Positions 6,195 through 11,867 of a DNA stretch of 43,199 bases are shown piece by piece. Position numbers and translations under genes: made by a program. Origin of the DNA: a virus. Lineage: Duplodnaviria; Heunggongvirae; Uroviricota; Caudoviricetes. Below the pieces are notes generated by a model. That model did no database searches, was not told the DNA's origin, and saw only the letters and a program-made list of their open reading frames with translations. The stretch is from the IMG/VR virus record IMGVR_UViG_2728369130_000006, positions 1 through 43,199 of that record. One strand, 5' to 3'. How positions within the stretch are numbered: position 1 is the first letter of the stretch; every line of letters begins with the position of its first letter.

Positions 6195-7433
6195 TTATCC
6201 AACCTTAATTCTCTTAACTTCAACGTCCCCATTTTCATCAACGATAATAATTCCTTGAGAAGGAGAGGAAAGTTTCCTTAATTTATTTTTACTATAATCA
6301 TCTGCGCCTTTTAGCGATCCTAATGTAACAATTCTTTTATCTAACCCAACTTCGATGTCTCTAAAACTATGATAATGACCCATTACAATCATATCGTAAA
6401 CAATATTGTCCATCGCAGAATGTTTTGCTAAAAGAAATTCATCCTTAAAAGAATCTCTATCTCCATGAATAAATTTTATATTACGTGAATTAATCCTTAA
6501 TCGATATTCATAGTCATCGGCTTCATTAAAAGTAATTCTTTCAGTTTTTGTATTTTGAATAAATGACTTGATTGAATAGTTTATTGACTTTACTACATGA
6601 TCTCCATCTGTGTTTTTTTCTTTGTCGGTAATTCGATCGTGATTTCCTGCAATTCCTGCATAAGAAACATTAAATCTTTTTTCGGCAAGAAACATTAGGA
6701 ACTTGATTATTAAATCCGAAGCTCTTACAATTTGATCGGAAAATAGAAATTCAACATTATATCCTTGATTAAATCTCATAGATGAATGCTCGATAACATC
6801 ACCCAAGTTAACAACATGAAGATCTGTTATATTGTTCATATTTGCCTCTCTAATTATTTTAGAAGCATAGACACTCAGTCTTTCGAGTGCAATATTGAAA
6901 TTATATTGATTTACATTAGTATCTACTAATGCACCTATATGTAGGTCAGACAATCCAACAATCATTTTTTTGCCAGAAGAGGGAAGGGGAGAGGTTTCAA
7001 TTTTTAAACTAGAGAAATCATAATTTTTGAAAGCGCTTCCAATTTGATCAGCAACAATACTAAAATCAATTAGCTCTCTTTTCCCTTTATTAATTTCTCT
7101 TAAGACATTTTGATTCTCTCTTTTCTCATAAGATATTTCTCCAACTAATTCTTTAATCGATTCAAGTTTATTATCAGTAACCATGTCCGCATGCTTTTGA
7201 ACATCTGGAAGTTCTCCAATTGATTTTTGGTATGATTTAATCATGCATCGATAGGATTCGCTGTTTTCAGCATCATAGAACCCTTCTTTCTCCATTAGTT
7301 TAACTAATTGATTCCAAGAAGCCCGTCTAGATGGAGAAGCCTTTTGTAATTCTTTTTTTATTCGAACAGCAGTTATCAAATGCTCCTTTGAAACAGTGAT
7401 TAGCTCACCAGATTTATTTGTATATGATCTCAT
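6195..7433 (-). CDS. Calcineurin-like metallophosphoesterase (SPbeta YonJ-like)
   Basis: Motifs SDLHIG, LGDVIE, GNHD, HGD, GHYH. Confidence 0.85.
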   Translation of the reverse strand: MRSYTNKSGELITVSKEHLITAVRIKKELQKASPSRRASWNQLVKLMEKEGFYDAENSESYRCMIKSYQKSIGELPDVQKHADMVTDNKLESIKELVGEISYEKRENQNVLREINKGKRELIDFSIVADQIGSAFKNYDFSSLKIETSPLPSSGKKMIVGLSDLHIGALVDTNVNQYNFNIALERLSVYASKIIREANMNNITDLHVVNLGDVIEHSSMRFNQGYNVEFLFSDQIVRASDLIIKFLMFLAEKRFNVSYAGIAGNHDRITDKEKNTDGDHVVKSINYSIKSFIQNTKTERITFNEADDYEYRLRINSRNIKFIHGDRDSFKDEFLLAKHSAMDNIVYDMIVMGHYHSFRDIEVGLDKRIVTLGSLKGADDYSKNKLRKLSSPSQGIIIVDENGDVEVKRIKVG

Positions 7434-7468
7434 TCTATATATTCATCCTTATCTTTTTATTAATACAA

Positions 7469-7500
7469 AATAAGCCAAAGGCATCAACCTCTGACTTATT
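7469..7500 (-). terminator. Intrinsic terminator closing the tRNA/Y-like RNA/DUF2828 unit
   Basis: Minus strand AATAAGTCAGAGG-TTGATG-CCTTTGGCTTATT followed by TTGTATT. Confidence 0.6.
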
Positions 7501-7555
7501 ATTCTGCCTTCCCGACCACTCGCAGAAGCGAGAAATTATATACAGAAGGGACAGC

Positions 7556-9016
7556 CTAAGCTGTAACCTTTTGATAACGATCGCCACAGATGACATCTAG
7601 CATGAAGTCATATGGTGTTTTCCCATCAGAGCTTAACAACTGTGTTAAGATGCTTGGCGAGAATCCGCTTACAAGCTGTACTCCAACTTCGTTCATTGTC
7701 ATAGGCGTATTACTATGCGCGTTCACATTCCAAAAAACAATGTTAGGTAAATCGTAGCCATAACTATTGAATTTTTCCTCCATATTTTTAAAAATGTTTT
7801 TACTAGCCCCATCAACACAGTGGTTAAACTGCATATCTGAAATGATGTAAATCTTCTTTACTACTTCATCGTTTGGAAGATTGTTTTTCACTGCTACATC
7901 TAAGATTGTTTGAAGTGATTTTTCGATATTGGTACTACAACCCCAATTCACACGTGAAATATTGTTAACTTTTTCGACAATATTTGTTCCTTGAATCTTG
8001 ACTAACTCTGGACGCGCACTAAATGTCATGAAATGATCTTTATAAGCACCTTTATTTCTCTCAGCGATATACATCGCTAATGAGATAGCAACATTCATTG
8101 GTGTACCAGACATACTTCTACTTACATCAGCCATAACAATTGAGTCTTCTGATTTATCTCCCATGTAGTTAGGAAGATTATTCCACTGACCTTCAAATAA
8201 TTTGATTTCTTGCTTTGAAAGTCTAGGTTTTAACCAATGATGATTGCCTAAAATTTTTCCAACAATGTCATTAGGGTATAATGTGCCAGAGTTAACCTTT
8301 GTCTCTCCGTTAGTTAGAGAATCAAGAAATGCACGGTATCTCTTTTCATCATTTCGAAAGAACGCATCACGGTAAATCATGCCCGCTTTAGAAGGGAGTT
8401 TATCATATGAAATTTCTTCGTATCTTCTTTCCGTAAGCTTTGTCTCAACAATGTTAATCTTTTCTCTAAGAGAGGCTAAAAGTTTACGGTACTGCTTTGG
8501 AGTTCCACCAAGAGCTTTTCGGAATATTCTCGCATACTTCTTAGTTCTCGTGGAAGAGGCATTTTCAGAGGGCATCCATTTTGCAAGTAAAGATGGATTA
8601 TCCGCCTCTTTATCAGCTAGTAATTGTTCTTTAACTAGCTTAAGAATTTCTTTTTGTACAGGTGTTTCAAGTAACTCCCACATATCGTCCCATCGACCAT
8701 ACAAAGGAATTAAGTGAAGATTTTTCACTAGAGAATCCTTGTTATATACTGACAAATGGCGGAGAGCTAAACGAAAAAATCTACGTTCTCCTTGACCTTG
8801 AGCGATATCACGAAGATAGAAGAGAGCCTTCATTGCTAAAGTTGCATCTTCTGCATAGGCTTTTGAGAACAATTTGACTACTTCATCATCACTTTTATTT
8901 CTATAAGCTCCACCCATAGAAAATAAGTCTAGCACAGCAGATTTAGTGCTTTTATAAGCTAATGCTCCATTTAGGGTTTCTGTTTCATTAAATTCATTTA
9001 CTAAGTGATTTAACAT
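7556..9016 (-). CDS. DUF2828-family protein with C-terminal vWA domain (Ro60/TROVE-like RNA-binding protein)
   Basis: N-terminal T.NGA.AY.ST, LFYLRDI..G.GER, YGRWDD and LAKW.PSE motifs; MIDAS-like DVSRSMS; STN, ISDMQF, IVFWNV. Relationship to Ro60 is inferred from architecture. Confidence 0.8.
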   Translation of the reverse strand: MLNHLVNEFNETETLNGALAYKSTKSAVLDLFSMGGAYRNKSDDEVVKLFSKAYAEDATLAMKALFYLRDIAQGQGERRFFRLALRHLSVYNKDSLVKNLHLIPLYGRWDDMWELLETPVQKEILKLVKEQLLADKEADNPSLLAKWMPSENASSTRTKKYARIFRKALGGTPKQYRKLLASLREKINIVETKLTERRYEEISYDKLPSKAGMIYRDAFFRNDEKRYRAFLDSLTNGETKVNSGTLYPNDIVGKILGNHHWLKPRLSKQEIKLFEGQWNNLPNYMGDKSEDSIVMADVSRSMSGTPMNVAISLAMYIAERNKGAYKDHFMTFSARPELVKIQGTNIVEKVNNISRVNWGCSTNIEKSLQTILDVAVKNNLPNDEVVKKIYIISDMQFNHCVDGASKNIFKNMEEKFNSYGYDLPNIVFWNVNAHSNTPMTMNEVGVQLVSGFSPSILTQLLSSDGKTPYDFMLDVICGDRYQKVTA

Positions 9017-9109
9017 GTTATCACTTCTCCTTTTTCTTCTTTTACATTCCGTAAAACTAAGAAACTATAAATAAATTATTATTTCATTATTAATTTTATT
9101 ATAAAAGTA

Positions 9110-9180
9110 TATGATCTATCGGATTCGAACCGATACCCAATGGTTGGAAGCCATCGATACTACCTTTATACTAAGCTCAC
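9110..9180 (-). tRNA. tRNA-Gly(TCC), atypical (acceptor-stem mismatch, A discriminator)
   Basis: GTGAGCT/AGATCAT acceptor, GATGG-CTTCCAA-CCATT anticodon arm, TATCGG-TTCGAAT-CCGATA T region. Confidence 0.65.
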
Positions 9181-9185
9181 ATGAA

Positions 9186-9270
9186 CGGAGTGTAGAGGAT
9201 TCGAACCTCTGCCACCTTTCGGTGCTAACTGCTTAGCAAACAGTCCTCTTAACAACTTGAGTAACACTCC
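9186..9270 (-). tRNA. tRNA-Ser(GCT)
   Basis: GGAGTGT/ACACTCC acceptor, ACTGT-TTGCTAA-GCAGT, long variable arm, G discriminator. Confidence 0.93.
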
Positions 9271-9275
9271 AAAGC

Positions 9276-9352
9276 TAGGCGCAATAATATCTGTCAATTT
9301 ACCATAATTATTTTTAAACCTACACTATTAAGAATATTGCTGTACGCGCCTA
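9276..9352 (-). ncRNA. Y-RNA-like element A (ACAGCAA family)
   Basis: TAGGCGC-GT-ACAGCAA...GCGCCTA; 7-bp terminal helix and shared motif. Confidence 0.65.
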
Positions 9353-9354
9353 TC

Positions 9355-9478
9355 AAGACACTGTTTATAAAGTCCTGTCTTAAGCCACTTGACGACTATC
9401 GGTACTTGCCGACAGGTAGGATTCGAACCTACGAATGGGACTGACCACGTTATGCATTAGAATAGCTGTTAGTGTCTT
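9355..9478 (-). ncRNA. Y-RNA-like element B enclosing a circularly permuted tRNA mimic (YrlA-like)
   Basis: AAGACACT/AGTGTCTT terminal helix, ACAGCTA motif, then T arm GTAGG-TTCGAAT-CCTAC, loop-closed acceptor CTGTCGG/CCGATAG, D arm GTC-AAGTGGCTTAA-GAC, and AGTCC/GGACT in place of the anticodon stem. Confidence 0.8.
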
Positions 9479-9482
9479 TTGA

Positions 9483-9563
9483 TACCGAAGGCAGGACTTG
9501 AACCTGCACGTCTTTCGACACCAGAGTCTAAATCTGGCGTGTCTGCCTTTCCACCACTTCGGC
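9483..9563 (-). tRNA. tRNA-Leu(TAG)
   Basis: GCCGAAG/CTTCGGT acceptor, CCAGA-TTTAGAC-TCTGG, variable arm, T arm. Confidence 0.92.
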
Positions 9564-9570
9564 ATAATAG

Positions 9571-9647
9571 ATGAGATGAAGGGATTCGAACCCTCGATAT
9601 TAGGATTTGCATTGCAATCCTATGCCTTACCACTTGGCTACATCCCA
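9571..9647 (-). tRNA. tRNA-Cys(GCA)-like with a 5-nt tandem duplication in the anticodon loop
   Basis: TGGGATG/CATCTCA acceptor, U discriminator, stem TAGGA/TCCTA with 12-nt loop TTGCAATGCAAA. Confidence 0.75.
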
Positions 9648-9653
9648 TATGAA

Positions 9654-9733
9654 TACCGAGGCGCCAACTGATTTGCCTCGCTGTCGCTAAACAGGTTTTC
9701 TTCGTGCCTCCTACGCGCGATTGTCGATACGGC
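9654..9733 (-). ncRNA. Unclassified GC-rich structured RNA candidate
   Basis: 80-nt GC-rich island right after a sigmaA promoter; hairpins CTGT/ACAG and CGAGGC/GCCTCG; no T-loop. Confidence 0.4.
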
Positions 9734-9744
9734 AGAAATTTCAA

Positions 9745-9773
9745 TTTATAATCCATAGTTTCAAATGTGTCAA
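9745..9773 (-). promoter_or_regulatory. SigmaA promoter internal to the tRNA array
   Basis: TTGACA-17 nt-TATAAA on the minus strand. Confidence 0.7.
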
Positions 9774-9826
9774 TCTATTTTTGAGAGTCAATTAAACTAT
9801 GGATGAAAGGTTTATTTTATTTATTA

Positions 9827-9897
9827 TGCACCCGTCTGGAATCGAACCAGAACCGAGCGGTTATGAGCCGCCTGCTCGACCTTCGAGCTACGGGTGC
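9827..9897 (-). tRNA. tRNA with CAT anticodon, probably Ile2 (lysidine-type)
   Basis: GCACCCG/CGGGTGC acceptor; GGCGG-CTCATAA-CCGCT resembles Bacillus tRNA-Ile2 more than elongator or initiator Met. Confidence 0.85.
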
Positions 9898-9903
9898 GAA
9901 ATC

Positions 9904-9961
9904 TAGACACACTCATTTCGCCTAAATAAAATTTTGAAAGTTAAATTGCTGTGGGTGTCTA
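9904..9961 (-). ncRNA. Y-RNA-like element C (ACAGCAA family)
   Basis: TAGACAC-CC-ACAGCAA...GTGTCTA. Confidence 0.6.
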
Positions 9962-10003
9962 TATTTTCTATAGAAGGGGAGAGGGTGACTAATCCTCTCA
10001 AGC

Positions 10004-10125
10004 AAGACACAGTATATAAATGCTACCGTTACACCACAGAGATAGTCTGTCTCTGGAGGGATTCGAACCCTCACCACTGTTTTATCATAGCCAATATGTA
10101 GTAATAGTTTTGCTGTATGTGTCTT
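10004..10125 (-). ncRNA. Y-RNA-like element D enclosing a circularly permuted tRNA mimic (YrlA-like)
   Basis: AAGACACA/TGTGTCTT terminal helix, ACAGCAA, T arm GAGGG-TTCGAAT-CCCTC, loop-closed acceptor CAGAGA/TCTCTG, D arm GTG-TAACGGTAG-CAT. Confidence 0.8.
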
Positions 10126-10130
10126 TAAAA

Positions 10131-10204
10131 CTGCGAAGGTAGGCTTCGAACCTACAAATCCTAGCTTCAAAGGCTAGTGACTTTACCAGTTTGTCTACTT
10201 CGCA
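10131..10204 (-). tRNA. tRNA-Gln(TTG)
   Basis: TGCGAAG/CTTCGCA acceptor, CTAGC-CTTTGAA-GCTAG. Confidence 0.92.
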
Positions 10205-10205
10205 A

Positions 10206-10282
10206 TGGTCTGGGTAGCTGGATTCGAACCAACGACATCTCCTGCCCAAGAGGAGTAGGCTACCAGACTGCCCTATACCCAG
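10206..10282 (-). tRNA. tRNA-Pro(TGG), CCA encoded
   Basis: CTGGGTA/TACCCAG acceptor, CTCCT-CTTGGGC-AGGAG, 3' ACCA. Confidence 0.93.
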
Positions 10283-10419
10283 ATTTAAGCTTTTTGAAGA
10301 GAAGCATAACTCTGGTCTACGTCTTTTTGAGGTCTAGCACACCAGTAAGACCTAGAAAGGAGTGGTGCATATGTGCAAACTTTACATTACAGAATACGGT
10401 GGAGTGGAAGCTCCACCTA

Positions 10420-10491
10420 CTCATCCAGCAGGGTTCGAACCTACAACCCCCTGATTAACAGTCAGGTGCTCTACCATTGAGCTATGGATGA
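10420..10491 (-). tRNA. tRNA-Asn(GTT)
   Basis: TCATCCA/TGGATGA acceptor, CCTGA-CTGTTAA-TCAGG. Confidence 0.92.
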
Positions 10492-10497
10492 AAAATC

Positions 10498-10572
10498 AAG
10501 GCGCAAAATTTTCAATAACGATTTTATAAACATTAACAATTTAGCCTAAAATAATTTTGCTGTGAGCGCCTT
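10498..10572 (-). ncRNA. Y-RNA-like element E (ACAGCAA family)
   Basis: AAGGCGC-TC-ACAGC-AAAATT...AATTTT-GCGCCTT; first element after the promoter. Confidence 0.65.
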
Positions 10573-10587
10573 ATTGGTTATGTAATT

Positions 10588-10616
10588 ATAATAACATTAT
10601 TAATTAGTTTTGTCAA
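10588..10616 (-). promoter_or_regulatory. SigmaA promoter with repeated operator AAACTAATTAATAATG, driving the RNA module
   Basis: TTGACA-AAACTAATTAATAATGT-TATTAT; the same motif recurs at several other promoters. Confidence 0.75.
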
Positions 10617-10625
10617 GTGCTATTC

Positions 10626-11867
10626 TTACATTCTGTCAGCGATGTCTGCAATTTTACTTCTGTGAATTGTTTGAAGTTCAATTTCTCCATAAATTTCATT
10701 CCCCCTAAACACTTCACTCATTCGTCTCATGCCATTGTTTGATGAGTATACATCTTTATCTACTTGAGCAAAATAATCTCCGTCAACAATAACCTTTGTA
10801 TTGTCGCTAATACGTTGCAGTCCCAATTTCAACAGGTCGGCTGTTAAATTTTGTGCCTCTAAAATCCAAACAATTGTTTTCATTTCTCCTGTATCATAAC
10901 CGCGCAAGTCTACAAAAGGGAGGATTTCAAGATTATTATCATTAATCTGTTTAATGATTTCATCTTCATCACCAAATTTAGACCTAAGCATAGTGCCTAC
11001 AGCCGATTGTAATAGTTTCTCCAATCTATCTCCCTTATAAAATCCAAGTTCTTGAGAATCGCGAAGTGGGGTAGGGTTGACGAAGATAACCAGTTTATAT
11101 CCTTCTTTTTCAACGAGATTCCATGCTGTATTCAATGCGATAATTGATTTTCCACTTCCTGCACGACCTCGAATAGAAGTTAGTTGATTATTCAAAATGC
11201 TGTCTACGGCCATAACTTGTTGTTCATCACGAGGCTGAAATTCTCCAAACTGATCGGTTTTGAATCCATTTTTAATACGACCTTTTTTATTGCGTAGCGA
11301 CTGGAGCATTTCACCATTCCATTTCAAGATGTCCATCAGTTCACCATTTAAATCGTCATTGATAACTGCATATTCATTTATTAATAAGTTAAATTTGTTT
11401 ACATTTAAATTCAGATAAACTTCCTCTAGCTCCTCTTGTGTCATCAGAAATTCTTTAAATCCTTTATATTCAATAAAGGTGTTTTCGTTTAAATGTTTGA
11501 TAGGGACACCAAACATTTTACATTTTTCTTTAATAAGTCGATCGTTTGAAATCATCCCATATCCATTATCTACTGCGACTTGAAGCAAGATATTATCGAC
11601 ATATTGCCCATCTAACCTTTCGTCTAGAGTAAAAGTATAATCCTTCAAATCAATATAAATATGAGATGATGTATCATCTAAAAATCTTTTTAACTTCCGA
11701 ATATCGTATTGAAGCTGACGGTCACTTTTTCTTGTCTTTTCTAAATGTTCAACTTCTCTTAATACATGAGAGGGGATTACACAATCATATTCATTAATAA
11801 TCTCTGGCTTAATTAAAAGAACATTTGTATCTACAATAAACTTCATACCGTTTCTCCCTTTAGTCAA
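10626..11867 (-). CDS. phoH: PIN domain-PhoH family ATPase fusion (PhoH2/YlaK-like)
   Basis: N-terminal FIVDTNVLL PIN motif; GRAGSGKS Walker A; LRG, EAQN and DGD..Q PhoH motifs. Confidence 0.9.
   Translation of the reverse strand: MTKGRNGMKFIVDTNVLLIKPEIINEYDCVIPSHVLREVEHLEKTRKSDRQLQYDIRKLKRFLDDTSSHIYIDLKDYTFTLDERLDGQYVDNILLQVAVDNGYGMISNDRLIKEKCKMFGVPIKHLNENTFIEYKGFKEFLMTQEELEEVYLNLNVNKFNLLINEYAVINDDLNGELMDILKWNGEMLQSLRNKKGRIKNGFKTDQFGEFQPRDEQQVMAVDSILNNQLTSIRGRAGSGKSIIALNTAWNLVEKEGYKLVIFVNPTPLRDSQELGFYKGDRLEKLLQSAVGTMLRSKFGDEDEIIKQINDNNLEILPFVDLRGYDTGEMKTIVWILEAQNLTADLLKLGLQRISDNTKVIVDGDYFAQVDKDVYSSNNGMRRMSEVFRGNEIYGEIELQTIHRSKIADIADRM

What the first reader, a model, noticed from the sequence alone, without database searches (positions are those of the whole stretch)
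9355..10125. Two circularly permuted tRNA mimics embedded in the Y-like RNAs
Seen: elements B (9355-9478) and D (10004-10125) read T arm (TTCGAAT loop), acceptor 3' strand, 6-7 nt loop, acceptor 5' strand, D arm. The anticodon loop is replaced by an opening into the ACAGC-bearing terminal helix. Both end in TTTATAWAC-WGTGTCTT. Their tRNA parts differ in sequence, which suggests independent derivation from different tRNAs. Established: YrlA-class Y RNAs have this permuted T/acceptor/D arrangement and receive tRNA modifications. Inference: elbow mimics with no anticodon and no CCA end could decoy tRNA-targeting defence nucleases or recruit tRNA-handling enzymes. A tRNA finder would miss them or call them pseudogenes.
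Basis: partly seen in the sequence, partly recalled or inferred. Interest (0 to 1): 0.85.

Follow-up and report, generated by a model that had tools for sequence, protein, structure and literature searches.

The report
Permuted tRNA mimics in Y-like RNAs
Two small RNA genes in a Bacillus phage's tRNA cluster fold like tRNAs whose halves are swapped and whose anticodon end is replaced by a conserved "handle". They belong to a widespread RNA family, for which I found no publication, that sits beside a Ro60-like ring protein and so looks like a second version of the Ro/Y-RNA particle.

Summary
On the minus strand, B (9354-9478) and D (10003-10125) each read: 8-bp terminal helix, ACAGC, T arm, closed acceptor hairpin, U8, D arm, 3' helix strand.

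- **tRNA finders:** ARAGORN and Rfam miss both as they stand. Rotated at the acceptor loop, both are called tRNAs. Shuffled controls gave 0 of 992 calls.
- **Covariance model:** a model built only from B and three relatives recovers D and about 40 further elements. All lie on the strand of a DUF2828 gene. Of the cells, 92% are paired against 36-48% in slid controls, and 26 of 27 pairs show two-sided changes.
- **Tertiary signature:** U8, A14, G19, Y48 and G53-T54-T55-C56-A58 are conserved.
- **Neighbouring gene:** 7556-9016 models as a Ro60/TROVE ring plus vWA domain.
- **Handle:** the helix-NN-ACAGC handle accompanies this gene in 90 of 105 phage loci and 71 of 80 bacterial loci.

The RNAs work like YrlA Y RNAs but are not YrlA. 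They lack the GNCGAA motif and score 18 bits against a 69-bit threshold. Protein binding, processing and the proposed decoy role are untested.

I found no publication. This scan had already noted the same family on other DNA. I class it as a new variant of a known kind.

The parts
9354..9478 (-). Element B: a handle RNA with a complete permuted tRNA-like module (anticodon-stem analogue, T arm, closed 7-bp acceptor hairpin, D arm).
   Evidence: Sequence reading. ARAGORN calls a tRNA on the rotated sequence. Model R1 scores 145.6 bits. Covariation.
9465..9478 (-). B handle, 5' side: 8-nt helix strand (9478-9471), a one-nt spacer (9470), then ACAGC (9469-9465).
   Evidence: Motif scan, 5 hits against 0.45 expected. 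Helix 1 is 94% paired with two-sided changes in all 7 pairs.
9416..9432 (-). B T arm: 5-bp stem and UUCGAAU loop.
   Evidence: In the MFE fold. G53 T54 T55 C56 A58 C61 are 97-100% conserved in 34 family members.
9396..9415 (-). B acceptor hairpin: 7 bp closed by the 6-nt loop CAAGUA.
   Evidence: In the MFE fold. Stem sequences differ completely between loci yet still pair, 92% of cells.
9377..9393 (-). B D arm, preceded by U8 C9 at 9395-9394.
   Evidence: U8 94%, A14 91%, G19 88%, A21 82%. D stem 95% paired.
9355..9375 (-). B anticodon-stem 5' strand GGACU (9375-9371, pairs with 9442-9438), an A/U-rich linker, and the handle 3' strand (9362-9355).
   Evidence: Three different fully compensated versions of this stem occur in L007 and L030. 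The helix is 75% paired across the family.
10003..10125 (-). Element D: a handle RNA with a permuted tRNA-like module (hairpin before the T arm, T arm, closed acceptor hairpin, D arm). It has no clear anticodon stem.
   Evidence: Model R1, built without it, finds it at E 0.038. The best sub-threshold Rfam YrlA hit in the genome falls on its core, 10018-10078.
10056..10072 (-). D T arm (GAGGG/UUCGAAU/CCCUC).
   Evidence: The stem changes by compensation in relatives: GUGGG/CCCAC, CUAGG/CCUAG, GAGAG/CUCUC.
10020..10055 (-). D acceptor hairpin (10055-10037), U8 G9, and D arm (10034-20, a 4-bp stem with a 7-nt loop).
   Evidence: Acceptor stems in relatives: CAGAGA/UCUCUG, CAAGGG/CCCUUG, UAGAGG/CCUCUA.
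9275..9352 (-). Element A: a handle RNA without a tRNA module.
9903..9961 (-). Element C: a handle RNA without a tRNA module.
10497..10572 (-). Element E: a handle RNA without a tRNA module, first in the transcription unit.
   Evidence: A promoter-like site lies just upstream.
7556..9016 (-). Gene for a 486-aa DUF2828/DUF7788 (vWA) protein with a Ro60-like predicted fold. It is the presumed protein partner.
   Evidence: Pfam. AF2 model with pLDDT 82.6. The top 13 PDB matches are all Ro60/TROVE over the full length. D297, S299 and S301 are invariant.
10588..10616 (-). Promoter-like site (TTGACA, 17 nt, TATTAT, with TG) in front of element E and the RNA array.
   Evidence: 11 of 12 matches. This is a consensus match only.
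9109..10492 (-). Array of eight tRNA genes interleaved with A-E. Handle RNAs start 2-4 nt after a tRNA 3' end and end 3-5 nt before a tRNA 5' end.
   Evidence: ARAGORN and Rfam. Spacing read.

Best explanation
B and D are small non-coding RNAs of the Y-RNA type, not tRNA genes.

1. They are transcribed with the phage tRNA array.
2. They are probably released by the RNase P and tRNA 3'-end processing of the flanking tRNAs.
3. Their 5' and 3' ends pair in a 7-8 bp helix. Next to it lies a single-stranded NN-ACAGC. Helix and motif together form a 'handle' shared with elements A, C and E.
4. The handle most likely docks the RNA on the Ro60-like DUF2828/vWA ring protein encoded just downstream.
5. 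The distal part folds as the upper body of a tRNA: a T arm stacked on an acceptor stem closed by a loop, and a D arm whose loop meets the T loop to form the elbow.
6. This module probably presents a tRNA elbow, without anticodon or CCA end, to tRNA-recognising proteins. Candidates are modification enzymes, RNase P, an exoribonuclease or a host tRNA-targeting factor. It could tether them to the ring or gate the ring, as proposed for Rsr with YrlA.

Shown here: the fold, by comparative analysis; family membership; the Ro60-like fold of the neighbour's predicted model; and the co-occurrence of handle and gene.

Inferred: co-transcription, processing, protein binding, and what the tRNA module does.
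For: - Permuted cloverleaf parts are present in B and D. ARAGORN calls tRNAs once they are rotated. It made 18 such calls on 248 real elements and 0 on 992 shuffles.
- Model R1, built from B and three close relatives, finds D and distant members in IMG/VR and bacterial loci. Every hit is on the strand of the DUF2828 gene.
- Covariation: 92.2% of cells are paired, against 36-48% when partners are slid. 26 of 27 pairs show two-sided changes, and 0 of 500 shuffles reach the observed values.
- The tRNA tertiary signature is kept: U8, A14, R15/Y48, G19, A21, and G53 T54 T55 C56 R57 A58 C61.
- Handle elements on the gene strand versus the opposite strand: 277 versus 27 in 105 phage loci, with 90 loci positive; 208 versus 24 in 80 bacterial loci, with 71 positive. 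Control pentamers gave 17-47.
- No other protein family is conserved beside the gene.
- The protein model matches Ro60/TROVE structures over its full length, including Thermus phage phiLo Ro60, which binds phage Y-like RNAs (PMC12135203).
- Precedent for this permuted topology in Ro60 partners is YrlA, which is modified by DusA and TruB. M. smegmatis YrlA is cut by RNase P (PMC4201824).
Against: - There is no expression, end-mapping or binding data.
- The alignment used for pair counts was fitted to the model's structure, which favours that structure.
- Thermodynamic folding alone does not give B's anticodon-stem analogue or D's D arm. The proposed folds are 3 kcal/mol above the MFE.
- The anticodon-stem analogue is only 75% paired across the family, and D lacks it.
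- The handle scan requires a helix, so handle pairing is not an independent test. Only the strand and control-motif contrasts are.
- Co-location in one operon does not prove binding.
Confidence: 0.7

Rival explanations
1. B and D act as free decoys or sponges for host tRNA-targeting defence proteins or tRNA-handling enzymes, without the Ro-like protein. The handle only stabilises the ends or directs processing.
For: The tRNA elbow signature is conserved. The elements sit in a phage tRNA array, a setting often linked to tRNA-directed conflict. In other loci, handle RNAs carry native-order tRNA bodies with intact anticodon loops.
Against: B and D have no anticodon loop or CCA end. About three quarters of handle RNAs have no tRNA part at all (224 of 248), yet they keep the handle and stay beside the DUF2828 gene in very different genomes. 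That points to the protein as the handle's partner.
Confidence: 0.1
2. The handle is a processing or punctuation signal of the tRNA operon, or the end of a small mobile RNA cassette. Its closeness to the DUF2828 gene reflects shared operons rather than binding. On this view B and D are by-products that carry tRNA junction fragments.
For: Handle RNAs abut tRNAs within 2-5 nt. In L012 a handle encloses a whole tRNA-Ile. Some permuted modules look like the junction of two tandem tRNA-Tyr genes, with ACCA after the acceptor 3' strand.
Against: In many loci the handle RNAs lie directly beside the gene with no tRNA nearby, for example L013-L029 and L023. The tRNA-like modules keep tertiary nucleotides and compensatory changes, which junk would not.
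Confidence: 0.1
3. B and D are circularly permuted tRNA genes. After cleavage in the acceptor loop and removal or ligation at the handle, they would yield working tRNAs, as in the permuted tRNA genes of the red alga Cyanidioschyzon merolae (recalled from my own knowledge).
For: The order is 3' half, linker, 5' half. B has a 7-bp acceptor stem suited to RNase P. ARAGORN accepts the rotated forms as intron-containing tRNAs.
Against: There is no 7-nt anticodon loop in B or D, and D has no anticodon stem. No CCA or conserved discriminator context follows the acceptor 3' strand. The same handle sits on RNAs with no tRNA part. No RtcB was found in the 107-kb record, and only a sub-threshold RNA-ligase-like hit. 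Bacteria lack the splicing endonuclease that this pathway uses (established knowledge).
Confidence: 0.04
4. B and D are decaying tRNA pseudogenes or recombination scars with no function.
For: tRNA finders do not call them.
Against: Both lineages are conserved in phages whose DUF2828 proteins are only 62-85% identical, and their stems show compensatory changes. Invariant tRNA tertiary positions are retained.
Confidence: 0.03

Closest known systems
YrlA, the tRNA-like bacterial and mycobacteriophage Y RNA bound by Rsr/Ro60 (Rfam RF02553; Chen et al. 2014, PMC4201824)
   Same: The terminal stem joins the 5' and 3' ends, with a conserved single-stranded motif next to its 5' strand. The distal domain runs (V) - T arm - closed acceptor stem-loop - D arm and keeps tRNA tertiary nucleotides. 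The gene lies close to, and on the same strand as, a gene for a ring protein of the Ro60 fold. Sister RNAs without the full tRNA module occur, like YrlB.
   Different: The motif is ACAGC, not GNCGAAN0-1G. The Rfam YrlA model gives at most 18.1 bits (threshold 69), and only on D's tRNA-like core. The partner protein is of the DUF2828/DUF7788 family, with no Pfam TROVE match. Here the RNAs are embedded in a tRNA array, five per locus.
Deinococcus radiodurans Yrn1 and the Ro60-Y RNA-PNPase complex (as summarised in PMC4201824 and PMC12135203)
   Same: The RNA is modular: a protein-binding stem plus an effector module with tRNA-like arms. In Yrn1 the T and D arms have the other orientation relative to the ends. 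This family also shows both orientations.
   Different: A tethering role to PNPase is shown for Yrn1. Nothing is known for the present RNAs. The binding motif and the protein family differ.
Thermus phage phiLo Ro60 with Yrl1/Yrl2 (PMC12135203; PDB 9KOP, 9L5Y)
   Same: A phage-encoded Ro60-fold protein has phage-encoded Y-like RNAs just upstream of its gene. It is the best structural match of the window's protein model.
   Different: The phiLo RNAs were picked by a CGAA motif and are not described there as tRNA mimics. Sequence identity of the proteins in the structural alignment is about 15%.
Circularly permuted tRNA genes (Cyanidioschyzon merolae) and two-piece permuted tmRNA (both from my own knowledge, not checked here)
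   Same: The 3' part of a tRNA-like body is encoded upstream of the 5' part, joined through the acceptor ends.
   Different: Those systems regenerate a working anticodon arm or a tmRNA with a chargeable CCA end. B and D have neither.
Dictyostelid Class I RNAs (Rfam RF01414; PMC7919456)
   Same: These are short RNAs with a short stem joining the 5' and 3' ends, a conserved motif next to the 5' strand, and a variable remainder.
   Different: The Rfam model hits none of elements A-E and none of five other loci at E<=1. I could not read the motif's letters in the paper. This is a resemblance of shape only.

Membership tests
YrlA (Rfam RF02553) | tRNA-like domain in the order T arm, closed acceptor stem-loop, D arm. 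| tested here: met
YrlA (Rfam RF02553) | Conserved nucleotides at tRNA-invariant positions, allowing tRNA tertiary contacts (PMC4201824). | tested here: met
   U8 94%, A14 91%, Y48 100% of occupied cells, G19 88%, and T-loop G53 T54 T55 C56 A58 C61 97-100%.
YrlA (Rfam RF02553) | GNCGAAN0-1G motif near the 5' end (the presumed Rsr site). | tested here: not met
   The 5' parts of B and D carry NN-ACAGC instead. The only CGAA in either lies in the T loop.
YrlA (Rfam RF02553) | Score at or above the family's gathering score (69 bits). | tested here: not met
   No hit at gathering level or at E<=10 in the cmscan. A direct search gave 18.1 bits on 10018-10078 only and nothing on B. No hit in five related loci.
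YrlA (Rfam RF02553) | Encoded within about 4 kb of a Ro60 (TROVE) ortholog, on the same strand. | tested here: inconclusive
   B and D lie 340-1110 nt upstream of 7556-9016 on the same strand. That protein's model has the Ro60 fold, but the protein has no Pfam TROVE match.
YrlA (Rfam RF02553) | Bound by Rsr in vivo, and carries dihydrouridine and pseudouridine made by DusA and TruB. | not testable with these tools
   Needs immunoprecipitation and modification mapping.
Handle RNAs beside DUF2828 genes (unnamed family, defined here and in earlier notes of this scan) | A 7-8 bp helix joining the ends, then two nucleotides (in the 8-bp helices of B and D the first of them pairs as the helix's 8th bp), then ACAGC (mostly ACAGCAA) on the 5' side, and a G after the 3' strand. 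| tested here: met
Handle RNAs beside DUF2828 genes (unnamed family, defined here and in earlier notes of this scan) | Lies near a DUF2828/vWA gene on the same strand. | tested here: met
   277 versus 27; 90 of 105 loci; 208 versus 24; 71 of 80 loci.
Working tRNA gene, including permuted tRNA genes | A 7-nt anticodon loop on a 5-bp stem that can be restored from the two halves. | tested here: not met
   In B the stem opens straight into the handle. D has no such stem.
Working tRNA gene, including permuted tRNA genes | Recognised by tRNA finders in its genomic order. | tested here: not met
Ro60/TROVE proteins (the neighbouring gene) | A ring of helical repeats followed by a vWA domain with a DxSxS metal site. 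| tested here: met
   AF2 model with pLDDT 82.6. Top 13 PDB matches are Ro60 over 516-575 aligned columns, E 3e-7 to 1e-4, TM about 0.4-0.57. D297, S299 and S301 are invariant in 16 homologues.
Ro60/TROVE proteins (the neighbouring gene) | Match to Pfam TROVE (PF05731). | tested here: not met
   One search gives only DUF2828, DUF7788 and weak vWA matches. One search finds no TROVE match in the whole 107-kb record. Sequence searches of the PDB found no Ro60.
Dictyostelid Class I RNA (RF01414) | Match to the Rfam model. | tested here: not met

The most novel reading that the evidence does not exclude
B and D are working parts of a second, widespread Ro/Y-type particle: a DUF2828 ring plus ACAGC-handle RNAs. 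The particle displays interchangeable pieces of tRNA. The pieces seen are permuted bodies, native-order bodies with anticodon loops, and lone T arms. It would sense, shield or repair tRNAs during the conflict between phage and host. For example, it could capture a host tRNA-targeting nuclease, or recruit RNase P, the CCA-adding enzyme or an exonuclease. RNase P would cut B in its acceptor loop into a two-piece RNA, as happens to M. smegmatis YrlA.
Probability: 0.2. Interest if true: 0.85.

Novelty: new variant of a known kind. Interest (0 to 1): 0.7.

Why it matters
Ro60 and its Y RNAs are conserved from bacteria to humans. What the tRNA-like part of bacterial Y RNAs does is still open.

Here the same design appears with a different docking motif and a protein family that sequence profiles do not link to Ro60. 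The design is a terminal helix, a short single-stranded motif and a tRNA elbow.

This protein family is encoded in at least 705 cultured phage genomes, of Escherichia, Salmonella, Listeria, Staphylococcus, Campylobacter, Mycobacterium, Bacillus and other hosts. It also occurs in many gut bacteria.

- The recurrence argues that "ring protein plus tRNA-mimic RNA" is a general solution, either evolved twice or diverged very far.
- It gives tractable systems to test what the tRNA mimic is for. B. subtilis phages FADO and PJN02 carry B and D homologues.
- It has a practical side. These genes are missed by tRNA finders and Rfam, and genome annotations leave the region blank or fill it with hypothetical ORFs.

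Tried and rejected
- **Rfam:** searches at gathering level and at E<=10 found nothing for B or D except chance-level partial hits.
- **PDB sequence searches:** neither the protein nor its profile found Ro60. Only the fold comparison did.
- **MAFFT alignment:** aligning the B-type and D-type elements together misaligned the acceptor and D regions. I used a covariance model instead.
- **Minimum-free-energy folds:** these recover the handle, T arm and acceptor hairpin. They do not recover B's anticodon-stem analogue or D's D arm. I rely on comparative evidence for those.
- **First motif pattern:** it had the wrong spacer and found nothing. It was corrected.
- **Conserved partner proteins:** clustering of neighbouring ORFs found none. 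PIN-PhoH and the metallophosphoesterase are confined to 9-10 close relatives.
- **Class I RNA lead from earlier notes:** the Rfam model does not hit the elements, and the motif's letters are not in the held text.
- **Literature:** searches for DUF2828, Ro-like phage Y RNA and permuted tRNA in phages gave no description of this family. Two reviews were not held.
Full report
**Setting.** The window is the first 43 kb of a 107-kb IMG/VR virus record. Its nearest cultured relatives are the large Bacillus siphophages 2S-4, vB_BsuS_PJN02 (Zhangjivirus), PK-3 and FADO. Positions 9109-10492 carry eight tRNA genes, all on the minus strand. Each starts with AGRCRC-NN-ACAGC and ends with the complement of the first hexamer. 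That gives 5 matches in the window against 0.45 expected, and all five are in this array. The same five are present in each of the four relatives.

**The observation.** Read on the minus strand, B (9478 to 9354) is laid out as follows:
- an 8-bp terminal helix, then ACAGC one nucleotide after the helix (two after its 7th pair) and about 22 unpaired nucleotides;
- AGUCC and a 5-nt variable loop;
- a T arm with loop UUCGAAU;
- a 7-bp acceptor stem closed by a 6-nt loop;
- U8 and C9;
- a D arm with GG in its loop, then A26;
- GGACU, which pairs with AGUCC;
- an A/U-rich linker and the 3' strand of the terminal helix.

D (10125 to 10003) has the same handle, a T arm, a 6-bp acceptor stem plus a C-A pair, U8 G9, and a canonical 4-bp D stem with a 7-nt loop. 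It lacks a convincing anticodon stem and has a hairpin in front of the T arm. ARAGORN and the Rfam tRNA model call neither element. When each sequence is rotated at its acceptor loop, ARAGORN calls a tRNA whose "intron" is the handle. Across 248 unique handle elements collected later, 18 give such a permuted call and 6 a native-order call. None of 992 shuffled versions does. The shared UUUAUAWAC is real in the window but is not conserved beyond close relatives.

**Comparative support.**
- *Lineages.* B and D each have their own lineage in related phages, and their stems change by compensation. B acceptor stems are CUGUCGG/CCGAUAG, CUUGCCG/CGGUGAG, CAAUCGC/GCGGUUG and CUUCGGU/ACCGAAG. B anticodon-stem analogues are AGUCC/GGACU, AUCUU/AAGAU and ACUUU/AAAGU. 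D acceptor stems are CAGAGA/UCUCUG, CAAGGG/CCCUUG and UAGAGG/CCUCUA. D T stems are GAGGG, GUGGG, CUAGG and GAGAG, each with its complement.
- *Covariance model.* I built model R1 from B and its three closest relatives only, with the structure above. Searched over 1.2 Mb of loci, it gave 45 matches at E<=1. These included window D (E 0.038), the D homologues (0.0085) and elements from many unrelated metagenomic phages. Every match lay on the strand of the DUF2828 gene.
- *Pair counts.* On the resulting alignment 92.2% of cells form standard pairs, against 36-48% when partners are slid by 1-3 columns. 26 of 27 pairs show changes on both sides, and no shuffle of 500 reaches the observed values. 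By helix the figures are T arm 99%, D stem 95%, handle 94%, acceptor 92% and anticodon-stem analogue 75%. The alignment was fitted to the model, which favours the structure, but the two-sided changes are many and varied.
- *Tertiary signature.* In 34 unique members the tRNA tertiary signature is kept: U8 94%, A14 91%, a purine at 15, a pyrimidine at 48 in all occupied rows, G19 88%, A21 82%, a purine at 26, and G53 T54 T55 C56 R57 A58 C61 at 97-100%. This is what an L-shaped tRNA elbow needs.

**The neighbour.**
- *Fold.* Directly downstream on the same strand, 7556-9016 encodes a 486-aa protein. It matches Pfam DUF2828 and DUF7788, with weak vWA matches and no TROVE match. An AlphaFold model built on 16 homologues (pLDDT 82.6) has Ro60/TROVE structures as its 13 best PDB matches. 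These cover the full length and are led by the Ro60 of Thermus phage phiLo (E 3e-7), followed by Xenopus, human and Deinococcus Ro60. D297, S299 and S301 are invariant among the homologues, as in a vWA metal site. Sequence searches of the PDB do not find this link, and the whole record has no TROVE match.
- *Distribution.* Homologues occur in at least 705 cultured phage records. In some mycobacteriophages they are annotated "Ro-like RNA binding protein".

**The handle follows the gene.**
- In 105 IMG/VR loci found through the protein (37-85% identity), a scan counted 277 elements on the gene strand in 90 loci. The scan looked for a 7-bp helix, two nucleotides, ACAGC, the 3' strand and a G. It counted 27 on the other strand, and control pentamers gave 18-47.
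- In 80 bacterial genome loci the figures are 208 in 71 loci against 24, with controls at 17-25. R1 finds seven permuted members there at E<=0.1, all just upstream of the gene.
- Helix sequences differ freely between loci, for example GGGCGC, GGAUAG, GGGGUU and GACUCC, while ACAGC stays.
- No other protein family is conserved beside the gene. PIN-PhoH (10626-11867) and the metallophosphoesterase (6195-7433) occur only in 9-10 close relatives.
- The conserved unit is therefore the Ro-like protein plus the handle RNAs.

**Variety of the displayed module.** Most handle RNAs are 50-80 nt and carry no tRNA part. Others carry a lone T arm, a permuted body like B and D, or a native-order D-anticodon-T body in which the handle takes the place of the acceptor stem. 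In L012 a handle encloses a complete tRNA-Ile. Some permuted modules keep ACCA after the acceptor 3' strand and a tRNA-Tyr-like anticodon hairpin (L044-L046, L061, L075). That is what capture of the junction between two tandem tRNA genes would give. The two orientations parallel YrlA versus Deinococcus Yrn1 (PMC4201824).

**How it most likely works.**
- *Transcription.* A promoter-like site (10616-10588) precedes E.
- *Processing.* The handle RNAs begin 2-4 nt after a tRNA 3' end and stop 3-5 nt before a tRNA 5' end. RNase P and tRNA 3' processing would therefore release them. This step is inferred.
- *Docking.* The handle would dock on the Ro-like ring. This is inferred from co-occurrence and from Ro60 with Y RNAs.
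- *Function of the tRNA body.* It would present an elbow with no anticodon or CCA end to tRNA-recognising proteins. B's 7-bp acceptor stem stacked on the T arm is the substrate type that RNase P cut in M. smegmatis YrlA (PMC4201824), so a two-piece mature form is possible.
B and D cannot mimic an anticodon loop.

**Comparison with known families.** In architecture and context these RNAs work like YrlA. They are not members. They have no GNCGAAN0-1G motif. The Rfam YrlA model gives only 18.1 bits (threshold 69), on D's T-acceptor-D core, and nothing on B. It gives nothing in five related loci. The partner protein belongs to another sequence family. B and D are not working tRNA genes, permuted or otherwise. 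They have no anticodon loop, and their handle is shared with RNAs that have no tRNA part. The 107-kb record has no RtcB and only a sub-threshold RNA-ligase-like match.

**Novelty.** Full-text searches found no description of RNAs associated with DUF2828 proteins, or of permuted tRNA mimics in phage tRNA arrays. Earlier notes of this same scan report the same family on other DNA. So it is not new to the scan, but it seems unpublished. I class it as a new variant of a known kind: Ro/Y-type RNAs with tRNA mimicry.

Noticed in passing
window 9570-9647 (-): A tRNA with an oversized anticodon loop. ARAGORN reports 'tRNA-???', and the Rfam tRNA model scores 60.3 bits with a 7-nt insertion in the loop.
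   Followed up: no
window 10283-10418 (-): The 136-nt spacer between tRNA-Asn and tRNA-Pro folds better than shuffles (-35.9 kcal/mol, z -2.9). It begins with a 7-bp GC-rich hairpin at 10417-10398. It may be another structured RNA or an attenuator inside the array.
   Followed up: partly
L012 7405-7523 (+): A handle (helix plus ACAGC) encloses a complete, high-scoring tRNA-Ile(GAU) (Rfam tRNA 73.3 bits at 7432-7504). In some phages a whole tRNA is therefore displayed on the handle.
   Followed up: partly
L044 3019-3150, L045, L046, L061 2268-2403, L075 3481-3613 (+): These permuted modules keep ACCA right after the acceptor 3' strand. They also keep a tRNA-Tyr-like anticodon hairpin or its GUAAA half in the 5' part. 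This looks like capture of the junction between two tandem tRNA-Tyr genes.
   Followed up: partly
window 10626-11867 (-) and 6195-7433 (-): A PIN-PhoH fusion protein and a 412-aa metallophosphoesterase flank the array and the Ro-like gene. They accompany it only in 9-10 closely related loci out of 106, so they are not core partners.
   Followed up: partly
G000:C1:102875-103300 (outside the window; L110): A 437-aa open frame gives a sub-threshold match to Pfam RNA_ligase (20.8 bits, cut-off 27). It could be a DNA or an RNA ligase.
   Followed up: no
L013-L020, L027, L029 about 6468-6591 (+): In high-GC phage or prophage loci, with protein identity of 39%, two short handle RNAs (50-57 nt) sit immediately downstream of the DUF2828 gene rather than upstream, with no tRNA nearby. 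Their helices are GGGCGC and GGACCC. In L013, the one of these loci included in that search, the Rfam YrlA model found nothing.
   Followed up: partly
window 9469-9756 (-), 9922-10170 (-), 10177-10458 (+): Open frames of 82-95 aa overlap the tRNA and handle RNA genes and are almost certainly not genes. In FADO, PJN02 and PK-3, short 'hypothetical protein' CDS are annotated inside the same RNA array, and no RNA genes are annotated there.
   Followed up: no
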